64,000 nt of DNA from the human T2T-CHM13v2.0 reference genome, Homo sapiens (GCF_009914755.1 NC_060931.1), one strand, 5' to 3'; numbered from the stretch's first letter, positions 1-34,917 are shown. The notes: a model not told the origin generated them from the sequence alone. Numbers and translations: made by a program.

Positions 1-198
1 GTGAACCAGTGTCTCTTAATTTTCAGTTTTCTTTATATAGAGGTTATAATAGTCTTAAACCCTAAAAATGTTTAAATCAAAAAGGAATTAGGAAAAACAT
101 AATGATAGGTATATTTCTATTTGTGTAGGGTTTTTTAATGTACAGCTTTATTGAGATATAATTCACATACCATACAATTCACCATTTAAAGTATACTA

Positions 199-502
<304 letters not shown>

Positions 503-633
503 TGTATTATTCAGTGGTTTTTAATATATCCACAGAGTTACGCAACCATCACCACAATTTTAGAACATTTTCATCACCCCAAAAAGAAACCTTGTACTGA
601 TTAGCAATGGTTCCCTATTTCCCCCAACGCCCC

Positions 634-1650
<1,017 letters not shown>

Positions 1651-2417
1651 AAACCTCCCAAACACCATAGCCCTAGGCAACCACTAATCTACTTTCTGTC
1701 TCTAGATTTGATTATTCTGAACATTTTTAGTAGGGTTTTCAATTTTGCACTCTATTGAAAAATGTGGCTAGTTTAATTTTTTGAGAGTGAAATATCCATT
1801 TATTATATTACAATATAGCTATATAATTTGACAATCTCCTATGTAGAATATACAGTACCTGTCTAAGATATTTTAAGTACACCAGCATTTCCTTTTAGGC
1901 TATGTCAATTGACTAGAACACACTATAGTAAATACATACACAGGTTTGATGTGGATTATAATGAAGTGGTTTTTTTCCTTAGTAATCTGTATCATAATTC
2001 CCAATTAGTGTCTTTTTCTGCCTTGGAAATTTCTACAGAATTGTCAATATCAGGATAGTGCGTAAAAGTACACTCACCATACTGACAAGCACATTTTCTA
2101 TTTTGTTGCCCAAAACTCCCTGTCCTGTAAAGTGCTCTGCTTGCTTTTTAGTAGACATTTGATAAGTTAATGTTATATCCTTTGCAATGATATTATTTTG
2201 ATGACAAAGTAAGTTTATGCTTTCAAAAATCACAATTCGGTCAGAAAAGTTTAGCATCTTAAAAAAATTGTTGCTATTTGAAAAAAACAAAACAAAACAT
2301 ATACTTGTGACTTTGTGGTCCAGCTGGCAAAAACTTGACATATCATCCCATGAAAATTTTAAGTCATGAATTATTTTGACATGACAATATTGCTAACAAA
2401 ATCAAAATCAGCCGTTT

Positions 2418-2423
2418 AATAAA
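2418..2423 (+). terminator. AATAAA, possible distal polyA signal of the upstream gene (KLHL7 by locus recollection)
   Basis: Hexamer seen in unique AT-rich sequence; gene assignment is from memory of synteny only. Confidence 0.25.
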
Positions 2424-3769
2424 CAATTATTCCACCAAGCAGTCTATATTCCTTTTGCCATATATACTGTTAACAGCAAAAATTTTGGATTTGCTACATA
2501 TGCATGGGTAAAGGAGGTATTTAGACGAAATTTTGCTTTCTAAGGTTATACCAAAGACTTGAGAAAATCCAATTTACTCCCACATGGCACCAAACCAGCT
2601 CTCACTGAGAGTCATTATTTGGACCCTTAAGTCCAAATAATCTGTTCTTTTAATGAAAGGACATTTTACAGGTGGCATCATTCAGCGTTTGATAAATCCT
2701 TCCTTTAAATAGCCTCCTCCCTCTTTACAGTTGCCTCAAAAGACTTCAAAAAGCTTGAATCCACTTTTATCTTTCTCACCTTCCTCCTTCCCAAGATGAT
2801 TCACACTACTTTAGAAAAAATAAAAATTTTATTTAAAAAAGTCTGTGCTGGGAAATTGTTTGAAATGTTGCCCTTATTAACTAGAAATCTTTTTACTCTC
2901 CAGAGCTTTACGCCCTCTCTCATAACAGATTTAAAATGGGGTTCAAGATCTAGTTTGAATCTTATAGAAATTCCCTCAGACTTTATCTTCTAACCTTCTT
3001 TAATTTGTTCCCACTATCTACGTTTTCCAAGAGTACTTTATTTCTATAATTGTTCTTTTATATAGTATGCCATTCTTGTTTCATGTTATCCTCTCTGATG
3101 ATATTTTAGTTTCTTTAAATTTTAAAAATATTTTAGTGTTTTTGTTTCCTCTAACTTCTTTTTCTGTTTCTTTGCTTTGCTCTTTCCTGTTGGCATCTGC
3201 CTTCAAATGTCTAGTCCCTGACTGTGCATTTGGATTTAAATGAGACATCTGAAAATTGATAATTCAGGGGTACAAGGGTGAGCTTAATCAATGAACTTCA
3301 TTATATGATGAGGAGATGGCCAACTATTTTTGTTGCTAGTCCATAAGAGATCCATAGGTATTTTTCTGGGATGTTTGACTCACCATTCAATAAGCATAAG
3401 CCCTCTCTGTACCTGATGTCCTAGAATCTGAAGTGTCTCTCATTCCTTTTTATTGGGGAGGAATCCTATCTCCTATCAAGTCGAGACAGTTGCCTCATCC
3501 AATTGGAAGGGGAGGCAGCAGTATTTTTCCTCTGCCATCTTGAAGAAATCAGAAGTTTCCTTCCTGTAACCCCACTCTCCTGATTTCCACCTATATATAC
3601 CCATCACCAAACCGATCACTACCAAGTCCTGCAAGCCCTAGGCTCTCATTGTCTCACACACACTCCACCTAGACAGTCTCAACCGGCATTCTGGCCTTGC
3701 CCCTCTCTACCTTCACCAAGCACTGGGCTTACCCTCACTTAAGTTTCAGTCACCACTGGTATTATTTTA

Positions 3770-5140
3770 GGTATTTGATCCCAGCAAAGTCCTTACACAT
3801 GCTGACATGTGCAGGAATGAGAAGTCAGTGGCTACAAAGCAATACTGGTTAACACAAGGTGGTAATAAAATAAATATACTAAGGTTAATGAAAGCCAAGT
3901 TTCTTGTTATCAATGGAGTTAAAAATAGAGGAAAATAAAATGAATCATGTGATTTTGGATTGAAATTGGAGATTATCAGTGTGAACTCAAGTTTTTTTCT
4001 TTTTTTCATAGTCTTTGACATAGAAGGCATAATAGTTTTAATATATAAAATATAGAAATGTTTGATGTAAATGTTCGTGTTTGTTTATACATATGTATTT
4101 CCCAGCAATGTTCATGACAGCAAAGACATCCCAGTAGCAATAAGCACATTAAAGCTCAGATCTTGGTTTCTAAGCAGCACCAAAAGGACCCCTGGAGAAA
4201 TAACTGATTTCAGGACTGGAGTAGAGAATGTAAAAATGAGCCTGGAACATCTCTGCACCAGAAAGTAAAAAAGTGCTCAAGTAATCATGGGGAATTTTTT
4301 TTTCTCCTTTTTCGAATGTGTAAAGGAGCTTAAAGGGGGTCCCATTGGCCAAATTGGAGATGATCTGAGCATCAAAATAAATAATGATAGTAATGGATTA
4401 TAACCCATTGAATAACATTGGAAATCATGAGTCCATACTGATATAAATAAATAAGTGAATGAGCTAAAAGTTGGATGAACAATCAGATTTTTATATACTT
4501 TCAAAGTACCTCCCCACAAAATTCTTATTAATAACAAAAAGGAAAAGAATAACTTTATGGTAGAGCAGCTTGGCAGACACCACCTTAAGCAAGTAATCCA
4601 TTGAGCATTACAGGTAACAGGACAAATTGAAATTGTGCACAACCTGCAATGTGAAAACCGCAGCATCACTTCTGTGATAATCCTGACAAAGATGCATAAT
4701 CTGAATCTAATCAAGAGAAAACATCAAACAGACCTGCACTAAGGAACCTCTACAGTATAAGCAGCCTGTAGTCTTTAATAGTGTCAAGGTCATGAAAAGG
4801 AAAAACAAAAAATCTTCCAAATTGAAGGAGACACAAGAAATATGACTAAGCAACAATGATTCCGAACTGAACCCTTTTCCTCTAAAGGACAATATTGGGA
4901 CATTTGGCAAAACATAAATGGAGTCTAAGGATTAGAGAGTAGTAGTGCATCAGTATCAATGTCCTAATTTTGTTGGCTGTGTTGTGGTTATGTAGAATGC
5001 CCTGGTTTGTTTGTAGAAAATATACAATAAGTATTTGGATCATGGGGCATTAGGTCTGCAACATAGTCTCAAATGGTTCAGGAAAAAAGTTCTTTGTACT
5101 GTTATTTGTAACTTTTCCATAAATTTGTTTCAAAATAAAT
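3770..5140 (+). mobile_element. Old L1 (L1MC/MD-like) 3' fragment
   Basis: Typical old L1 3'UTR motifs (AGATGCATAATCTGAATCTAATC, GGACAATATTGGGACATTTGGCAAA). Confidence 0.6.
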
Positions 5141-5708
5141 GAATTGCATTGATTAAAGAAAATAAAAAACTAGTTTGGACAAGTAGTTCCCGTCCTGTAG
5201 ATTCTGCTGTCTTCAAAATCCAAACAAATTACATGAGCAAGAATGATGGCTCACTCCCAGCTCAATAATCCTAAAACCACCAGCACAAACCTGTAATCCA
5301 ACAAAGTCAGATCTATTGACTTATTGCAATCAAGAAGACTGCACACCAGAGGAGCTGTGGTGTGTCTCACCGTACAAAATAAAAGGTAGTTATTGTATGT
5401 TTTGGCGGGGAGAGTGAAGTTTAGGTGAAATTTAAATGAAATCTCAAAGCATAGCTGTGTGTAAAGGCATTAACATCAGGTCTGGACGAGAATTGAATGT
5501 AGGGCATGTTTCCTTGGAAACTGCAAAGTTAAGAAAATACAGAATGTTTTCAGAACCGTTTATCTGAAGCTCTACACCTGGATAGAAATTGAGGCTGCTT
5601 CTCTGCGTCAAAGAGACTTAGATCCTCCAGGCAAGGATGGGACTTTTCACTCGTTCTGATATAATTTCAAATAGCAACGTTTATGTGGACTTGAAAGAAC
5701 AAGGTTTC

Positions 5709-29493: not shown

Positions 29494-29601
29494 AGCACCA
29501 AATTCAGAACAGTGTTTACCTAGGGAAAGAAAAAAAGAAATGGGATCTGAAAGGCACAGACAGGGAGCTTTATATGTGACTTAAAAAAAAAAAAAAGCTT
29601 A

Positions 29602-29838
<237 letters not shown>

Positions 29839-30455
29839 CTATACTTTCCCACATGCTTGAAATAAGTCTGCAAACTTTTAAATATTTGATTTAGGGGGAA
29901 AATGCCTTTTTCCCCACCCTAAATTGTGTATTATCAAGTCACTTTCAGATTTCTGCAGTGATCACTGTGAATCCACTGGTTTGCCAAATGGTGTCCAAGC
30001 CTGTTGGATTAAATATGTCATGCTGATGAGGCTTGTCATTCAAACACTGAAGCACAGGAGTAAAACTAGAGAACTGACTGTAGAGGTGGAAAATGTAATT
30101 TTTGCTATCAGACTAACGAAATATAAAAGGTACACATTTGTGGAACAAAATAAAAATCTTTGATTCACTAGTTGTGTGTTTGTTTCTCTAATTACACTGG
30201 ACGAGGAAAATAATCTAGAATCAACATATTAAGTAGTTACCTTGAGGCTCTTTTCTCAACCACACATCATCAACCACCTGGAAATCTGTTCCTTTTTCCT
30301 GGTTATTTACAATGCAAGCAGCTTTTAGCCCTGGCAGCACAGAAGCAGAAGAATTGAGGAATTCTCTGCCACTCCTGTAGTATCCTTTAACAGGTTAAGT
30401 GGTTGTCAAGCTTCTTTTTTAAATTTGTAAACCTATTTGAATCAATTTGTGACTC

Positions 30456-32579
30456 CTGCATTCCGGCCCGGCAGAAAGAGCTCGAAGAGACGCAGAGCGC
30501 GGCGCGCTCCCCCACGGCCCTCCAGGCCGGCGGGTGAGATGGGGAGATGAGCTAGGGGGCCCCGGACTGGCTGCGCCCTCTGCCCTGCAGACACGGGGGG
30601 CCCCGCTGTGGCTGCCCACTGGCCGGGCGCAGGCCTCGAAGCCGCGGCGAACCTCTCTTCCCCACCCCACCTCGGTGACTGTTGGCGGCGGCCTCTCCCT
30701 GCCCAGACCCCGCCGCCGGATCCTGCCCGGCCTCGACGAAACCCCGCCGAGCCGCCGAGACGCAGTGTCTCCGGGTGGCGGCGGGAGAGGCGGGCCGGGA
30801 AGCATGGCGGCCGCCCCAACACCGCGCGGCGGAGACCGTTAGGGTGTGCAGGGCCCGGGAAGGCGGTCTCGCGACGCAGGCAAGCTCGGCCGCCTCTTTA
30901 GGCCACGGAGCCGCGCGAGTCCGGGCCCGGGTGACCGCTCTGTTCCCACTGGACGAGACCTGCCGAGTCCTCAGGACAACGGACAAAGGCCTTAACGGGC
31001 TTGGGAGGTGAGCGAAGTCCCGAACGATGACGGGTGGAACAGTTAGCGGCCTTCGGGCGGTTGGTCTCGTTCTACCAGAGCTTGCTGTCGGAAGAGAGAA
31101 ATGGTGGAATGACAAGCCACGTCTGGCCTCTTGGAAATGCCCACCACCCTTTGGGAAGATTTACTGGCCGTTTATGGAAGGCCTGTGTATTTAATATGAA
31201 ACAGCTGCTCTCAACACTACCCAAACCTTTTAATAGAAAACATTTGCCACATCTAGCCCTTCTATGAGCTAGATGGAAAGAGGTTGCTGATGTATGATAA
31301 AGTTAGAAAATCACACATCTTGTAAATTCTCATTTGCTTAAAAGAAATCATAGAAAATAAATGTCTTCTGGAGACGACTTTTGGAAATGGAGTTGTTAAC
31401 ACGGCCTCTGGAAGCGAGACGTCCACGTTTGTTAAGTGGTTTAGAGGACATGGAGCTGGAAGACCTGAGAAGGAAGAGAAGAAGCTTCTGTGCCAGACTG
31501 GTCATATTTAGAAGACATTTTCATATTCTCTCCATTGTTTTGTGTGCATTTCATTCCTCACTACTGTGTATATGGTTGACAATGCTAAGCTTTTTTGAAA
31601 TGTCTATTCTTTTTAGATATTCTGAAGTGCCTGATATATGTAGAAAAAAATAACCTTTTGTAAATATCTTTTTGTTACAATTCATATGAAATGTTTGGTG
31701 GGGGAATGGCCCAATCACCTGTTGAGTAATACTCATTGTGTTTGTGCACTGGTTCAGGGGAGGAGGGGGAAGTGCAGAGATCTCTATGCCACTGTGCTTA
31801 CAGCGAGGCAAGATTAATCATTATCTCTGCGCATTTTGTTTTACTTGTCTGTGTATATAGTGTACATAAAGGACAGACAAGTCCTGATTTACAACATCTA
31901 GTCTTTCTAGATATTAAAGAGGTTGCCAGTACATGATAAAAGTAGAGTTAGTAAACTAATATATTTTGTACATTTTGTTTTAGAAGTCCTAGGAAAGATT
32001 GTCTTCTGAAAATTTGAGCATTCTTGCCCGCTGGGTTGATGGAGATGGGAAGGGTTCTAGGCCAGAATGTTCCTATTTGGAAGACTCTTTCAAATTATAA
32101 CTGTTGTCACATGTTTGCAGTTTATTCAAGACTGCTGTGTTCGTAGTGGACAAATGAACTCCTTACTTGAAACATCTAGTCTATCTAGATGTTTAGAAGT
32201 GCCCAATGTATGTTAAATGTAGAGGTAGTAAAATACCACTTCGTAAATATCTTTTTGCTAAAATTCATGGGGAATGCTGTCTTTTGGAAATTGAATTGTG
32301 AAGCCACCTTTGTGAGCAGTATAGTACTGTCTATACTTGTTCAGTGGTTTAGAGGAGATGGGAGGGAAGACATTGCAAAAGATAATATGCCAGTGTGTTC
32401 ATACTTGGACATTTTCAGACACCATTTTTTGCATGTTTTGTGCATGTTGTTTTGCTCTGTATATAGTGTATAAAACGGACAAATGAGTCCTAATTTTGCA
32501 ACATCTAGTGTCTAGATGTTAAAGAGGTTGCCAGTGTATGACAAAGTATTTAGTACAATTAGCATATTTTGTAAAAAAA
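30456..32579 (+). pseudogene. Processed retrocopy of lncRNA NORAD (LINC00657), 5' ~2.1 kb
   Basis: TSD AATTTGTGACTC at 30444-30455 and 32580-32591, short A tail from 32573. 5' end TTCCGGCCCGGCAGAAAGAG...GGACAAAGGCCTTAA...GGAAGATTTACTGGCCGTTTATGGAAGG and repeat units TGTATATAGTGTACATAAAGGACAG...ACATCTAGTCTTTCTAGAT match my recollection of NORAD. Confidence 0.88.
30460..31090 (+). promoter_or_regulatory. CpG-island-like 5' part of the NORAD retrocopy, with a YY1-like AAGCATGGCGGC at ~30800-30811
   Basis: Very high GC and CpG density in otherwise AT-rich flanks. Confidence 0.65.
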
Positions 32580-33377
32580 AATTTGTGACTCTTTATGACT
32601 CATACCTCTCCTCCACAAAAAAAAAAAGAAGACATTACTTGAATTATCTATTATTTCAGAAGTTTCTCAACTCAGAGACATTTACATAATTCGGTGGATT
32701 CAGCATATAGTCCGGTATAAGGAAAAGGTTGCTTGATTGGTTAGATTGTTATTCCTCAATATTAAGGACCCATCAAATGCTACACTTAAGGATTCAGTCC
32801 TAACACCTACCCTGTAGGTTTGGAATCAGGCTCTGAAGGATCACGGGAAGTTCCAGGCAAATGATCAACGCTCAAGCAAAAGAGGGAGAGGAAAAGAATA
32901 GAAACATTGCATACAAATCCAAATGGTGACAGGTGCAAAGACCAAGAAAGGAGTGCATTAAAATGCTAGAGAGTAGAGTGAATGCAGTCACTAGGGGCTA
33001 CAGCCTGTGATAACTTCCCAGAGGAAATGGATTTGAGTAGTTTTGAGAGGGAAGTGAAATCATAACGGGAAGGAGAAATAGCCAAAATAGAAGTCACCTT
33101 CTCATAGAGACAAAATGAGCCTGTGGAGATTACATTAACCTTAGATAGCGTTTGAAAATATTCTTTAAAGAATATTTACTACCTTGCTGAAATTAGGTTA
33201 ACTTTTCTAAGTATCACCTGTAGAATATGTAATACCCACCATCTGGTGATTTTGTGAATAGTAAATGAAAAAATGAACTCTAAATGCTTAGCAGAGAAAT
33301 TATGCTCAATTCTATCATTGAGAAAAATAATGCTTATTCACTATAGAGGATTCCAGTCACATAGAAATACATAAAAT

Positions 33378-34917
<1,540 letters not shown>

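What the first reader, a model, noticed from the sequence alone, without database searches (positions are those of the whole stretch)
30456..32579. TSD-flanked retrocopy of the lncRNA NORAD: a candidate second, 'mini' Pumilio decoy
Seen: a 2.1-kb insert bounded by an exact 12-bp duplication (AATTTGTGACTC at 30444 and 32580) with a short A tail, a GC-rich 5' third and an AT-rich repetitive 3' two-thirds. Knowledge: it matches my recollection of the 5' ~2 kb of NORAD (LINC00657), the unspliced ~5.3-kb lncRNA that sequesters PUM1/PUM2. NORAD-derived copies are known elsewhere in the genome. Inference: this copy seems to start at the parent's 5' end and keeps its modules, so it could be a transcribed, partly functional paralogue rather than dead sequence. 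The interval is, from memory, the GPNMB/NUP42/KLHL7 Parkinson's disease GWAS locus.
Basis: partly seen in the sequence, partly recalled or inferred. Interest (0 to 1): 0.85.

Follow-up and report, generated by a model that had tools for sequence, protein, structure and literature searches.

The report
Old truncated NORAD retrocopy on chr7
This is an old retrotransposed copy of the first 2.1 kb of the lncRNA NORAD, one of dozens in the human genome, whose Pumilio sites are decaying while its imported CpG island has stayed intact.

Summary
An exact 12-bp duplication (30444-30455 and 32580-32591) brackets a 2,124-bp insert with a 6-A tail, a GC-rich 5' third and a repetitive AT-rich remainder.

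The insert aligns colinearly with nt 1-2147 of the chr20 NORAD locus (87% identity). It starts where four other retrocopies start. So the identity claim holds: it is an L1-type retrocopy.

It is not a "second" copy. At least 41 other NORAD-derived loci exist, and the expressed one, HCG11, is already in print.

The decoy reading finds no support:
- Only 4 of 7 parental (4 of about 9 ancestral) Pumilio elements survive.
- That is no better than a similar-age copy and slightly below neutral expectation.
- RefSeq lists no transcript here.

Two points go beyond the finding:
- The copy ends at NORAD nt 2147-2149, where two other independent copies also end in A-runs. An AGTAAA hexamer lies upstream. 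This points to a short, internally polyadenylated NORAD isoform as the template.
- The imported 667-bp CpG island is undecayed (CpG o/e 0.91, against 0.65 in a similar-age copy). This suggests lasting germline hypomethylation and possible regulatory use.

Expression, PUM binding and primate dating could not be tested.

The parts
30444..30455 (+). 5' target-site duplication AATTTGTGACTC
   Evidence: Exact 12-mer found only twice in the window; 0 of 100 shuffles reach 2 matches.
30456..30460 (+). 5 nt (CTGCA) at the 5' junction with no clear homology to the chr20 locus; extra junction nucleotides or a slightly upstream start
   Evidence: Pairwise alignment and 5'-end comparison.
30461..32573 (+). 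Colinear copy of NORAD nt 1-2147 (my numbering, nt 1 = G000:C20:37771938, minus strand)
   Evidence: blastn 87.2% over 2,173 columns. Substitution divergence 9.3%, K2P 0.100, non-CpG K2P 0.074. The 5' boundary is shared with four other retrocopies.
30456..31122 (.). Imported CpG island: 667 bp, GC 0.70, 75 CpG, o/e 0.91. It contains the RefSeq 'silencer' 30490-30770 and 'enhancer' 30961-31020 of the hub table.
   Evidence: The flanking 1-kb stretches have o/e 0.11 and 0.31, and the rest of the insert 0.25.
31123..32573 (+). AT-rich part with about five NORAD repeat modules of roughly 300 nt
   Evidence: Direct-repeat families with spacings of 277-328 and about 600-645 nt. Aligns to NORAD nt ~700-2147.
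31659..31666 (+). Retained Pumilio response element TGTAAATA
31852..31868 (+). Two retained adjacent PREs, TGTATATA (31852-31859) and TGTACATA (31861-31868)
32458..32465 (+). Retained PRE TGTATATA
31186..31193 (+). Lost PRE (TGTATTTA; parent TGTATATA). Two further lost parental PREs lie at 31567-31574 (TGTATATG) and 32242-32249 (CGTAAATA).
   Evidence: coordinates read.
32552..32557 (+). Mutated poly(A)-signal hexamer (AGTACA). The parent and 15 of the other 16 copies aligned have AGTAAA here; chr7:25.27M has a deletion across it.
32574..32579 (+). Residual poly(A) tail (6 A)
32580..32591 (+). 3' target-site duplication AATTTGTGACTC

Best explanation
The insert is an L1-mediated processed retrocopy of a short NORAD transcript. 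That RNA began at the normal NORAD start site on chr20. It was cleaved and polyadenylated at an internal site near nt 2149 instead of the usual end near nt 5340. It was reverse-transcribed into the NUP42-GPNMB intergenic region, probably roughly 35-55 million years ago, and before the copy I take to be HCG11 arose. Since then its body has drifted like neutral DNA, and 5 of about 9 Pumilio elements and its own poly(A) hexamer have been lost. So it is not maintained as a Pumilio decoy, and with 4 sites it could add little even if transcribed. The 5' CpG island it imported has kept full CpG density, which implies lasting germline hypomethylation. Shown: identity, boundaries, family size, shared 3' end, PRE decay, CpG retention. 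Inferred: use of the internal poly(A) site, the age, the hypomethylation, and the lack of decoy function.
For: Identity of the insert:
- Best non-self match in the genome is G000:C20:37769792-37771938(-), 87% over insert nt 6-2118; it is colinear.
- The chr20 locus carries two published NORAD shRNA targets from PMC6029837: one exact, one with 1 mismatch.
- The chr20 locus has 15 TGTANATA sites in 5,341 nt.

Retrotransposition hallmarks:
- Exact 12-bp duplication and an A tail.
- A 5' boundary shared with 4 other copies, on chr12, chr6, chrX and chr5.

Internal poly(A) site:
- 3 of the 4 copies whose homology stops near nt 2134-2149 end at nt 2147-2149 followed by A-runs. These are chr7, chr2:53.55M and chr9:105.94M. 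The fourth (chr12:75.89M) is broken by two Alus and unreadable.
- AGTAAA sits at nt 2126, about 17 nt upstream, and GT-rich TTTGTGTTG follows the site. The parent has no A-tract there.
- chr7 and chr2:53.55M share only 1 exclusive state, so they are independent events.

Age order:
- The tree is comb-shaped, with chr7 splitting off before the chr6:26.39M, chrX, chr12 and chr5 copies. Its terminal branch is 0.061.
- A 4-bp indel puts chr7 in the older layer.

No selection on PREs:
- 4 of 7 parental and 4 of about 9 ancestral PREs are kept, and chr9:116.17M also has 4.
- Neutral expectation is 5.2-6.8.

CpG island:
- o/e is 0.91 with 75 CpG, against 0.65 with 45 CpG in chr9:116.17M.

Decoy capacity:
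- Bohn et al. estimate that NORAD and HCG11 each hold <1% of expressed PREs in HEK293 (PMC5758885, passages).
Against: - No expression, CAGE, methylation or CLIP data could be consulted, so 'not a working decoy' rests on sequence decay and annotation only.
- PRE loss below neutral expectation is not significant (P = 0.045-0.29, depending on the branch length and on whether 8 or 9 ancestral sites are counted).
- The intact CpG island and the RefSeq silencer and enhancer features inside it show that part of the insert is not behaving as dead DNA.
- A lincRNA, AC005082.12 (ENSG00000226816), is described as '29 kb 5' to GPNMB' and is an rs199347 eQTL target in 18 non-brain tissues (PMC5522530). 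I could not establish whether it overlaps the insert.
- The target site is only a loose match to the L1 endonuclease consensus (bottom strand AATT/GA against TTTT/AA, the consensus being recalled).
- The age rests on primate neutral rates recalled from memory.
Confidence: 0.85

Rival explanations
1. Co-opted CpG island. The NORAD 5' CpG island delivered by the retrocopy has stayed unmethylated and now works as an orphan promoter or other regulatory element in the NUP42-GPNMB interval. It may drive a local lncRNA such as AC005082.12. This is compatible with the main explanation for the origin of the insert and differs only on present function.
For: - The island is 667 bp with GC 0.70 and CpG o/e 0.91. 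Flanks are at 0.11 and 0.31, so it came with the insert.
- It keeps 52 of 72 ancestral CpGs and has 23 private ones. The similar-age chr9:116.17M copy keeps 31 of 66, and older copies have o/e 0.12-0.76.
- Only 8 of its 20 lost ancestral CpGs became TG/CA, against 19 of 35 in chr9:116.17M.
- The chr6:26.39M copy, which I take to be the expressed HCG11, also keeps o/e 0.88.
- RefSeq places a silencer (30490-30770) and an enhancer (30961-31020) inside the island (hub table).
Against: - No methylation, chromatin or transcript data were available.
- RefSeq has no transcript starting here.
- CpG-dense DNA can stay unmethylated without having a function.
- Reporter-assay features may reflect sequence shared with NORAD itself.
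- Apart from CpG retention, the island evolves as fast as in the decayed copy (terminal branch 0.12 against 0.15).
Confidence: 0.35
2. Working mini-decoy. The copy is transcribed into a stable cytoplasmic RNA that binds PUM1/PUM2 through its remaining PREs and adds to NORAD's buffering of Pumilio.
For: - Four canonical UGUANAUA sites remain on the sense strand within 0.8 kb.
- The 5' CpG island is intact.
- HCG11 shows that a NORAD retrocopy can be expressed and PUM-bound (PMC4947167 and PMC5758885, passages).
Against: - It keeps 4 PREs against the parent's 15, and 5 of about 9 ancestral sites have been lost. That is the same count as a copy with a decayed island and below the neutral expectation of 5.2-6.8.
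- Its own poly(A) hexamer is mutated to AGTACA.
- There is no RefSeq transcript.
- Tichon et al. report that the NORAD pseudogenes other than HCG11 do not appear to be expressed. That statement concerns the four copies >90% identical over >4 kb, so it does not cover this one directly.
- Even NORAD and HCG11 each hold <1% of expressed PREs in HEK293.
Confidence: 0.06
3. The 3' truncation is not due to an internal poly(A) site. It arose from internal priming, from template switching by the L1 reverse transcriptase, or from a later deletion that happened to leave an A-run.
For: - The tail is only 6 A.
- AGTAAA is a weak signal variant.
- No paper describing a short NORAD isoform was found (search and passages of one review; search gave 0 papers).
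- Another copy (chr5:25.29M) ends at a different internal position, nt 2591, with no obvious signal.
Against: - Three independent copies of very different age (terminal branches 0.040, 0.056 and 0.10) end within 2 nt of each other, each followed by an A-run.
- The parent has no A-rich tract at that position for internal priming.
- A hexamer, a CA cleavage dinucleotide and a GT-rich downstream element are correctly spaced.
- The target-site duplication directly abuts the tail, which excludes a later deletion.
Confidence: 0.12

Closest known systems
NORAD (LINC00657), chr20q11.23, the parent gene
   Same: Colinear with its first 2,147 nt. Same 5' CpG-rich leader, same ~300-nt repeat modules, and four of the same PRE positions.
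   Different: Covers only 40% of the length. Has 4 PREs against 15, and 9.3% substitution divergence plus indels. It lacks the upstream promoter DNA and lacks repeat units 6-12, which by Tichon et al. include some of the most constrained units (3-5 and 7-9). No evidence of expression.
HCG11 (6p22.2), the known expressed NORAD retrocopy. I take it to be the chr6:26.39M copy, L026; the name was not verified by annotation.
   Same: Same origin and the same 5' boundary. The CpG island is preserved in both (o/e 0.88 against 0.91).
   Different: HCG11 is near full length (nt 1-5341 with an extra Alu). It is younger (terminal branch 0.035 against 0.061) and keeps 8 TGTANATA sites in the first 2.1 kb. 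Bohn et al. count 19 PREs overall. It is documented as expressed and PUM-bound.
Other NORAD processed pseudogenes (at least 41 loci in T2T-CHM13)
   Same: Same mechanism and the same comb-like budding from one master gene. Two of them, chr2:53.55M and chr9:105.94M, share the very same 3' end.
   Different: Most are 5'-truncated, fragmented by Alus, or have decayed CpG islands (o/e 0.12-0.76). This copy is complete at the 5' end, uninterrupted, and keeps its island.
Retrocopies that inherit part of a parental CpG-island promoter, and orphan CpG islands (Okamura and Nakai 2008; Illingworth et al. 2010; both recalled, not read here)
   Same: A CpG island carried inside the transcribed 5' end of the parent persists at the new locus.
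   Different: Promoter activity at this locus is not shown. The parent is a lncRNA rather than a protein-coding gene.

Membership tests
L1-mediated processed retrocopy | Colinear match to the mature parental transcript, located on another chromosome | tested here: met
   Window 30461-32573 matches NORAD nt 1-2147 on chr20 at 87.2% in a single HSP. Intron loss is uninformative because, by Bohn et al., NORAD is intronless.
L1-mediated processed retrocopy | Target-site duplication directly flanking the insert | tested here: met
   Exact 12-bp duplication; 0 of 100 shuffles reach 2 matches.
L1-mediated processed retrocopy | 3' poly(A) tail not encoded in the parent | tested here: met
   6 A lie between the last homologous base and the duplication. 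The parent reads CACTTTG at that point. The tail is short, as expected for an old copy.
L1-mediated processed retrocopy | Homology confined to transcribed sequence, starting at or after the transcription start | tested here: met
   Homology starts at the same base as in four other retrocopies; upstream sequences are unrelated.
L1-mediated processed retrocopy | L1 endonuclease-like target (TTTT/AA on the nicked strand; consensus recalled) | tested here: inconclusive
   The nicked strand reads AATT/GA, which is only a loose match (read).
NORAD-type Pumilio decoy lncRNA | High density of PREs (15-17 in NORAD) | tested here: not met
   4 TGTANATA sites on the sense strand, against 15 in the parent and 7 in the homologous stretch.
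NORAD-type Pumilio decoy lncRNA | Evolutionary maintenance of the PREs | tested here: not met
   4 of about 9 ancestral PREs are kept. Neutral expectation is 5.2-6.8, and the similar-age copy chr9:116.17M also has 4.
NORAD-type Pumilio decoy lncRNA | Abundant, stable, cytoplasmic transcript | not testable with these tools
   No expression data are available here. RefSeq has no transcript over the insert (hub table).
NORAD-type Pumilio decoy lncRNA | Direct PUM1/PUM2 binding | not testable with these tools
   Needs eCLIP or PAR-CLIP reads assigned by chr7-specific variants.
CpG island (Gardiner-Garden and Frommer / Takai and Jones criteria, recalled) | Length >500 bp, GC >55%, CpG o/e >0.65 | tested here: met
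   30456-31122: 667 bp, GC 0.70, o/e 0.91.
CpG island (functional, unmethylated) | Unmethylated in germline or soma; promoter chromatin marks | not testable with these tools
   Inferred only, from CpG retention compared with sister copies.

The most novel reading that the evidence does not exclude
The retrocopy delivered a self-sustaining, unmethylated CpG island into the NUP42-GPNMB interval. That island now acts as an orphan promoter or regulatory element inside the Parkinson's-risk LD block. It may be the origin of the lincRNA AC005082.12, whose level tracks the risk SNP rs199347. In addition, its 3' end and those of two sister copies record a previously undescribed ~2.15-kb NORAD isoform, made at an internal poly(A) site and carrying 7 of the 15 PREs.
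Probability: 0.25. Interest if true: 0.5.

Novelty: new member of a known kind. Interest (0 to 1): 0.27.

Why it matters
Mostly as a caution. NORAD has dozens of genomic copies, so reads, probes, shRNAs and CLIP tags for NORAD can cross-map, and a NORAD-like stretch is not by itself a decoy.

Two smaller points could matter if confirmed:
- A conserved internal poly(A) site would mean NORAD can make a 2.15-kb RNA that lacks more than half of its Pumilio sites. That would be a possible way to tune decoy strength.
- A retrocopy-borne CpG island that stayed intact for tens of millions of years inside a Parkinson's GWAS block is a reasonable candidate regulatory element for eQTL fine-mapping.

Tried and rejected
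- Rfam scan of 29500-33500 (E up to 1) gave only SRP and microRNA-family matches at 29626-29775 and 33380-33495, which I take to be flanking Alus. No family covers the insert.
- Tandem Repeats Finder found only trivial short arrays. The ~300-nt modules are too diverged for it.
- ATG ORFs under the standard code: four of 61-128 aa overlap the insert. I did not pursue them. Tichon et al. report negative PhyloCSF scores for NORAD.
- Copy-of-a-copy test: chr7 and chr2:53.55M share 1 exclusive state and do not pair in the tree. So there is no sign that the chr7 copy was itself retrotransposed.
- The position of AC005082.12 stayed unresolved. The main texts of five papers gave no coordinates for it; the fullest, PMC5522530, says only '29 kb 5' to GPNMB'. 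The PMC5522530 supplement gave only its Ensembl id. ENSG00000214871 lies elsewhere, at 23,210,760-23,234,503 hg19.
- Literature searches for 'NORAD' + 'retrocopy' gave 0 papers. 'NORAD' + 'alternative polyadenylation' gave 42 papers with 12 listed, all but one of them reviews; the one I opened did not concern NORAD's own 3' ends.
- The 3' end of the chr12:75.89M copy could not be read because two Alus interrupt it.
- No primate genomes are held, so orthologous empty sites could not be examined.

Full report
**Observation.** The 12-mer AATTTGTGACTC occurs exactly twice in the window, at 30444-30455 and 32580-32591. None of 100 dinucleotide-preserving shuffles gave two matches. The 2,124 bases between the repeats end in a short A-run. 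Six A (32574-32579) separate the last parent-homologous base from the 3' repeat. GC is 0.70-0.77 across 30500-31000 and 0.29-0.44 from 31100 onward. The AT-rich part contains diverged modules of about 300 nt.

**Identity.** The window's own genome could be searched.
- The best non-self match of the insert is G000:C20:37769792-37771938 on the minus strand, 87% over insert nt 6-2118.
- A direct alignment gives one colinear HSP, 87.2% over 2,173 columns, from window 30461 to 32573.
- Counting substitutions only, divergence is 9.3% (K2P 0.100; 0.074 outside CpG contexts).

I have no annotation for chr20, so I checked the name in two ways.
- Two NORAD shRNA target sequences printed in PMC6029837 hit this locus on the same strand. 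One is exact and one has a single mismatch.
- The locus carries 15 TGTANATA and 17 TGTRTATA sites in about 5.34 kb. Tichon et al. report 17 UGURUAUA motifs (PMC4947167, passages).

The location of NORAD on 20q11.23 is my recollection.

**Boundaries.** The 5' limit of homology falls at the same base as in four other copies on chr12, chr6, chrX and chr5. Their upstream flanks are all unrelated. The copy therefore begins at the parental start site, give or take the 5 unexplained junction bases CTGCA.

Full-length copies run to about nt 5335-5341. This one stops at nt 2147, so it is 3'-truncated, which is unusual for L1-made copies.

Two other copies at unrelated loci stop at the same place and then continue in A-runs.
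- chr2:53.55M covers nt 1424-2147.
- chr9:105.94M covers nt 608-2149 and is interrupted by an Alu.
- A fourth candidate, chr12:75.89M, is broken by two Alus and cannot be read.

The parent has the following features at this site:
- AGTAAA at nt 2126.
- A CA dinucleotide at 2148-2149.
- A GT-rich stretch, TTTGTGTTG, just downstream.
- No A-tract.

The three copies differ widely in age, with terminal branches of 0.040, 0.056 and 0.10. chr7 and chr2:53.55M share only one exclusive state. The simplest reading is an internal poly(A) site of NORAD that was used repeatedly in the germline and gave a ~2.15-kb isoform. I found no paper describing it (searches; passages of one review). That is not proof of absence, because subscription papers are not covered.

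**Family and age.** together show NORAD-derived sequence at 42 loci besides chr20, this one included. This is a lower bound, because only the best candidates are scored. [quoted passage not shown] They also note four copies >90% identical over >4 kb, of which only HCG11 appears expressed.

Maximum-likelihood trees are comb-shaped, as expected for copies budding from one slowly changing master.
- The trees are 18 rows over nt 1424-2147 and 8 rows over nt 1-2147.
- One copy, chr6:28.48M, was dropped from the 18-row set because it is split there.
- The chr20 locus has the shortest terminal branch (0.004).
- The chr7 copy branches before chr9:116.17M (support 84/88). It also branches before the chr6:26.39M copy (probably HCG11, 6p22.2 by PMC13373682, abstract only) and before the chrX, chr12 and chr5 copies.
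- A 4-bp indel next to the poly(A) hexamer agrees. Older copies, chr7 included, read AAAGTAYTTAGTAAA, and younger ones read AAAG----TAGTAAA.

The chr7 terminal branch is 0.061 overall and 0.047 in the CpG-poor part. With primate neutral rates recalled from memory, this suggests roughly 35-55 million years. No primate genomes were available to test this.

**Decoy function.**
- Within nt 1-2147 the parent has 7 TGTANATA sites. The chr7 copy keeps 4 and has lost 3 by single substitutions.
- Two further sites are ancestral by the evidence of other copies and are also gone. That makes 4 of about 9.
- The similar-age copy chr9:116.17M also has 4.
- Neutral decay along the chr7 branch predicts 5.2-6.8 survivors. 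The observed 4 is, if anything, low (P = 0.045-0.29).
- The copy's own poly(A) hexamer is mutated to AGTACA.
- RefSeq lists no transcript here (hub table).

I conclude that the body of the copy is not maintained as a Pumilio sponge. It could add little even if transcribed.

One caveat on the window-wide motif count: TGTANATA occurs 24 times in the window against 7.7 expected from shuffles, but only 4 of those lie in the insert.

**The CpG island.** The 5' 667 bp of the insert (30456-31122) has GC 0.70, 75 CpG and o/e 0.91. The neighbouring 1-kb flanks have o/e 0.11 and 0.31, and the rest of the insert has 0.25. So the island arrived with the retrocopy.

| Sequence | CpG count | CpG o/e | Ancestral CpGs kept | Lost CpGs that are TG/CA |
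|---|---|---|---|---|
| chr20 parent | 71 | 0.87 | 64 of 79 | 8 of 15 |
| chr7 copy | 75 | 0.91 | 52 of 72, plus 23 private | 8 of 20 |
| chr9:116.17M (similar age) | 45 | 0.65 | 31 of 66 | 19 of 35 |
| older copies | | 0.12-0.76 | | |

Sequence turnover in the island is nevertheless high, with a terminal branch of 0.12 against 0.15 in chr9:116.17M. What is preserved is CpG density, not sequence. That is the signature of long-term germline hypomethylation.

The chr6:26.39M copy also keeps its island (o/e 0.88). RefSeq places a silencer (30490-30770) and an enhancer (30961-31020) inside the chr7 island (hub table). I could not check their experimental source. This leaves room for a regulatory role, which I rate at about one in three.

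**Disease locus.** The NUPL2 hg19 coordinates in PMC8700849 give a window-to-hg19 offset. By that offset the insert lies near chr7:23.245-23.247 Mb. This is inside the block chr7:23,145,089-23,314,256 studied by Murthy et al. (PMC5522530, passages).

That paper reports a lincRNA, AC005082.12 (ENSG00000226816), "29 kb 5' to the GPNMB transcript", with rs199347 eQTLs in 18 non-brain tissues. A TWAS paper lists it as a PD risk gene (PMC11300466, passages). Whether this lincRNA overlaps the retrocopy, or instead corresponds to LOC101927890 (38535-64201), could not be settled. No coordinates appear in the texts I could read.

**Verdict.** The finding is real and correctly identified, but it is ordinary in kind: one more NORAD retrocopy, and not a special second decoy. 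Two observations are worth keeping and both are testable with public data. One is the shared internal 3' end, which points to a short NORAD isoform. The other is the unusually well-preserved imported CpG island inside a GWAS block.

Noticed in passing
L009 (G000:C20), NORAD nt 2126-2160 in my numbering; L010 1496; L022 2984: Three independent NORAD retrocopies (chr7, chr2:53.55M, chr9:105.94M) end at the same parental position, nt 2147-2149, followed by A-runs. AGTAAA lies about 17 nt upstream and a GT-rich element downstream. This is a candidate internal poly(A) site giving a ~2.15-kb NORAD isoform.
   Followed up: partly
L028 (G000:C5:25292000-25298000), 1611-4176: A young NORAD copy (96.6% identical) covers nt 1-2591 only. 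It ends in an A-run and is flanked by the duplication AAAATGGTCTGGTCT. This is a second, different internal 3' end with no obvious poly(A) signal.
   Followed up: partly
L009, NORAD nt ~3660-3948: NORAD contains an Alu-like stretch that matches many places in both orientations. It is present in the chr12:29.26M, chr6:26.39M and chrX:79.43M copies. It is absent from older ones such as chr9:116.17M, so it is a relative-age marker for the copies.
   Followed up: partly
Alignment, next to the AGTAAA hexamer (window 32544-32552): A 4-bp deletion (TAYT) arose in the NORAD lineage after the chr7 and chr2:108.87M copies and before the chr6:26.39M copy. Present-day NORAD also differs from its four youngest copies by one base there (GGAG against GTAG).
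   Followed up: yes
window 29626-29775 and 33380-33495: Sub-threshold Rfam SRP and microRNA-family matches, which I take to be Alu fragments flanking the insert on both sides. They are not part of it.
   Followed up: no
whole window: TGTANATA occurs 24 times on both strands against 7.7 expected from shuffles, and only 4 of these lie in the insert. The motif is over-represented in this AT-rich region in general, so raw PRE counts need a local background.
   Followed up: no
L023 (G000:C5:33156000-33160500): This old copy jumps from NORAD nt ~1589 to nt ~2857. That looks like a deletion by recombination between NORAD's own repeat units.
   Followed up: no
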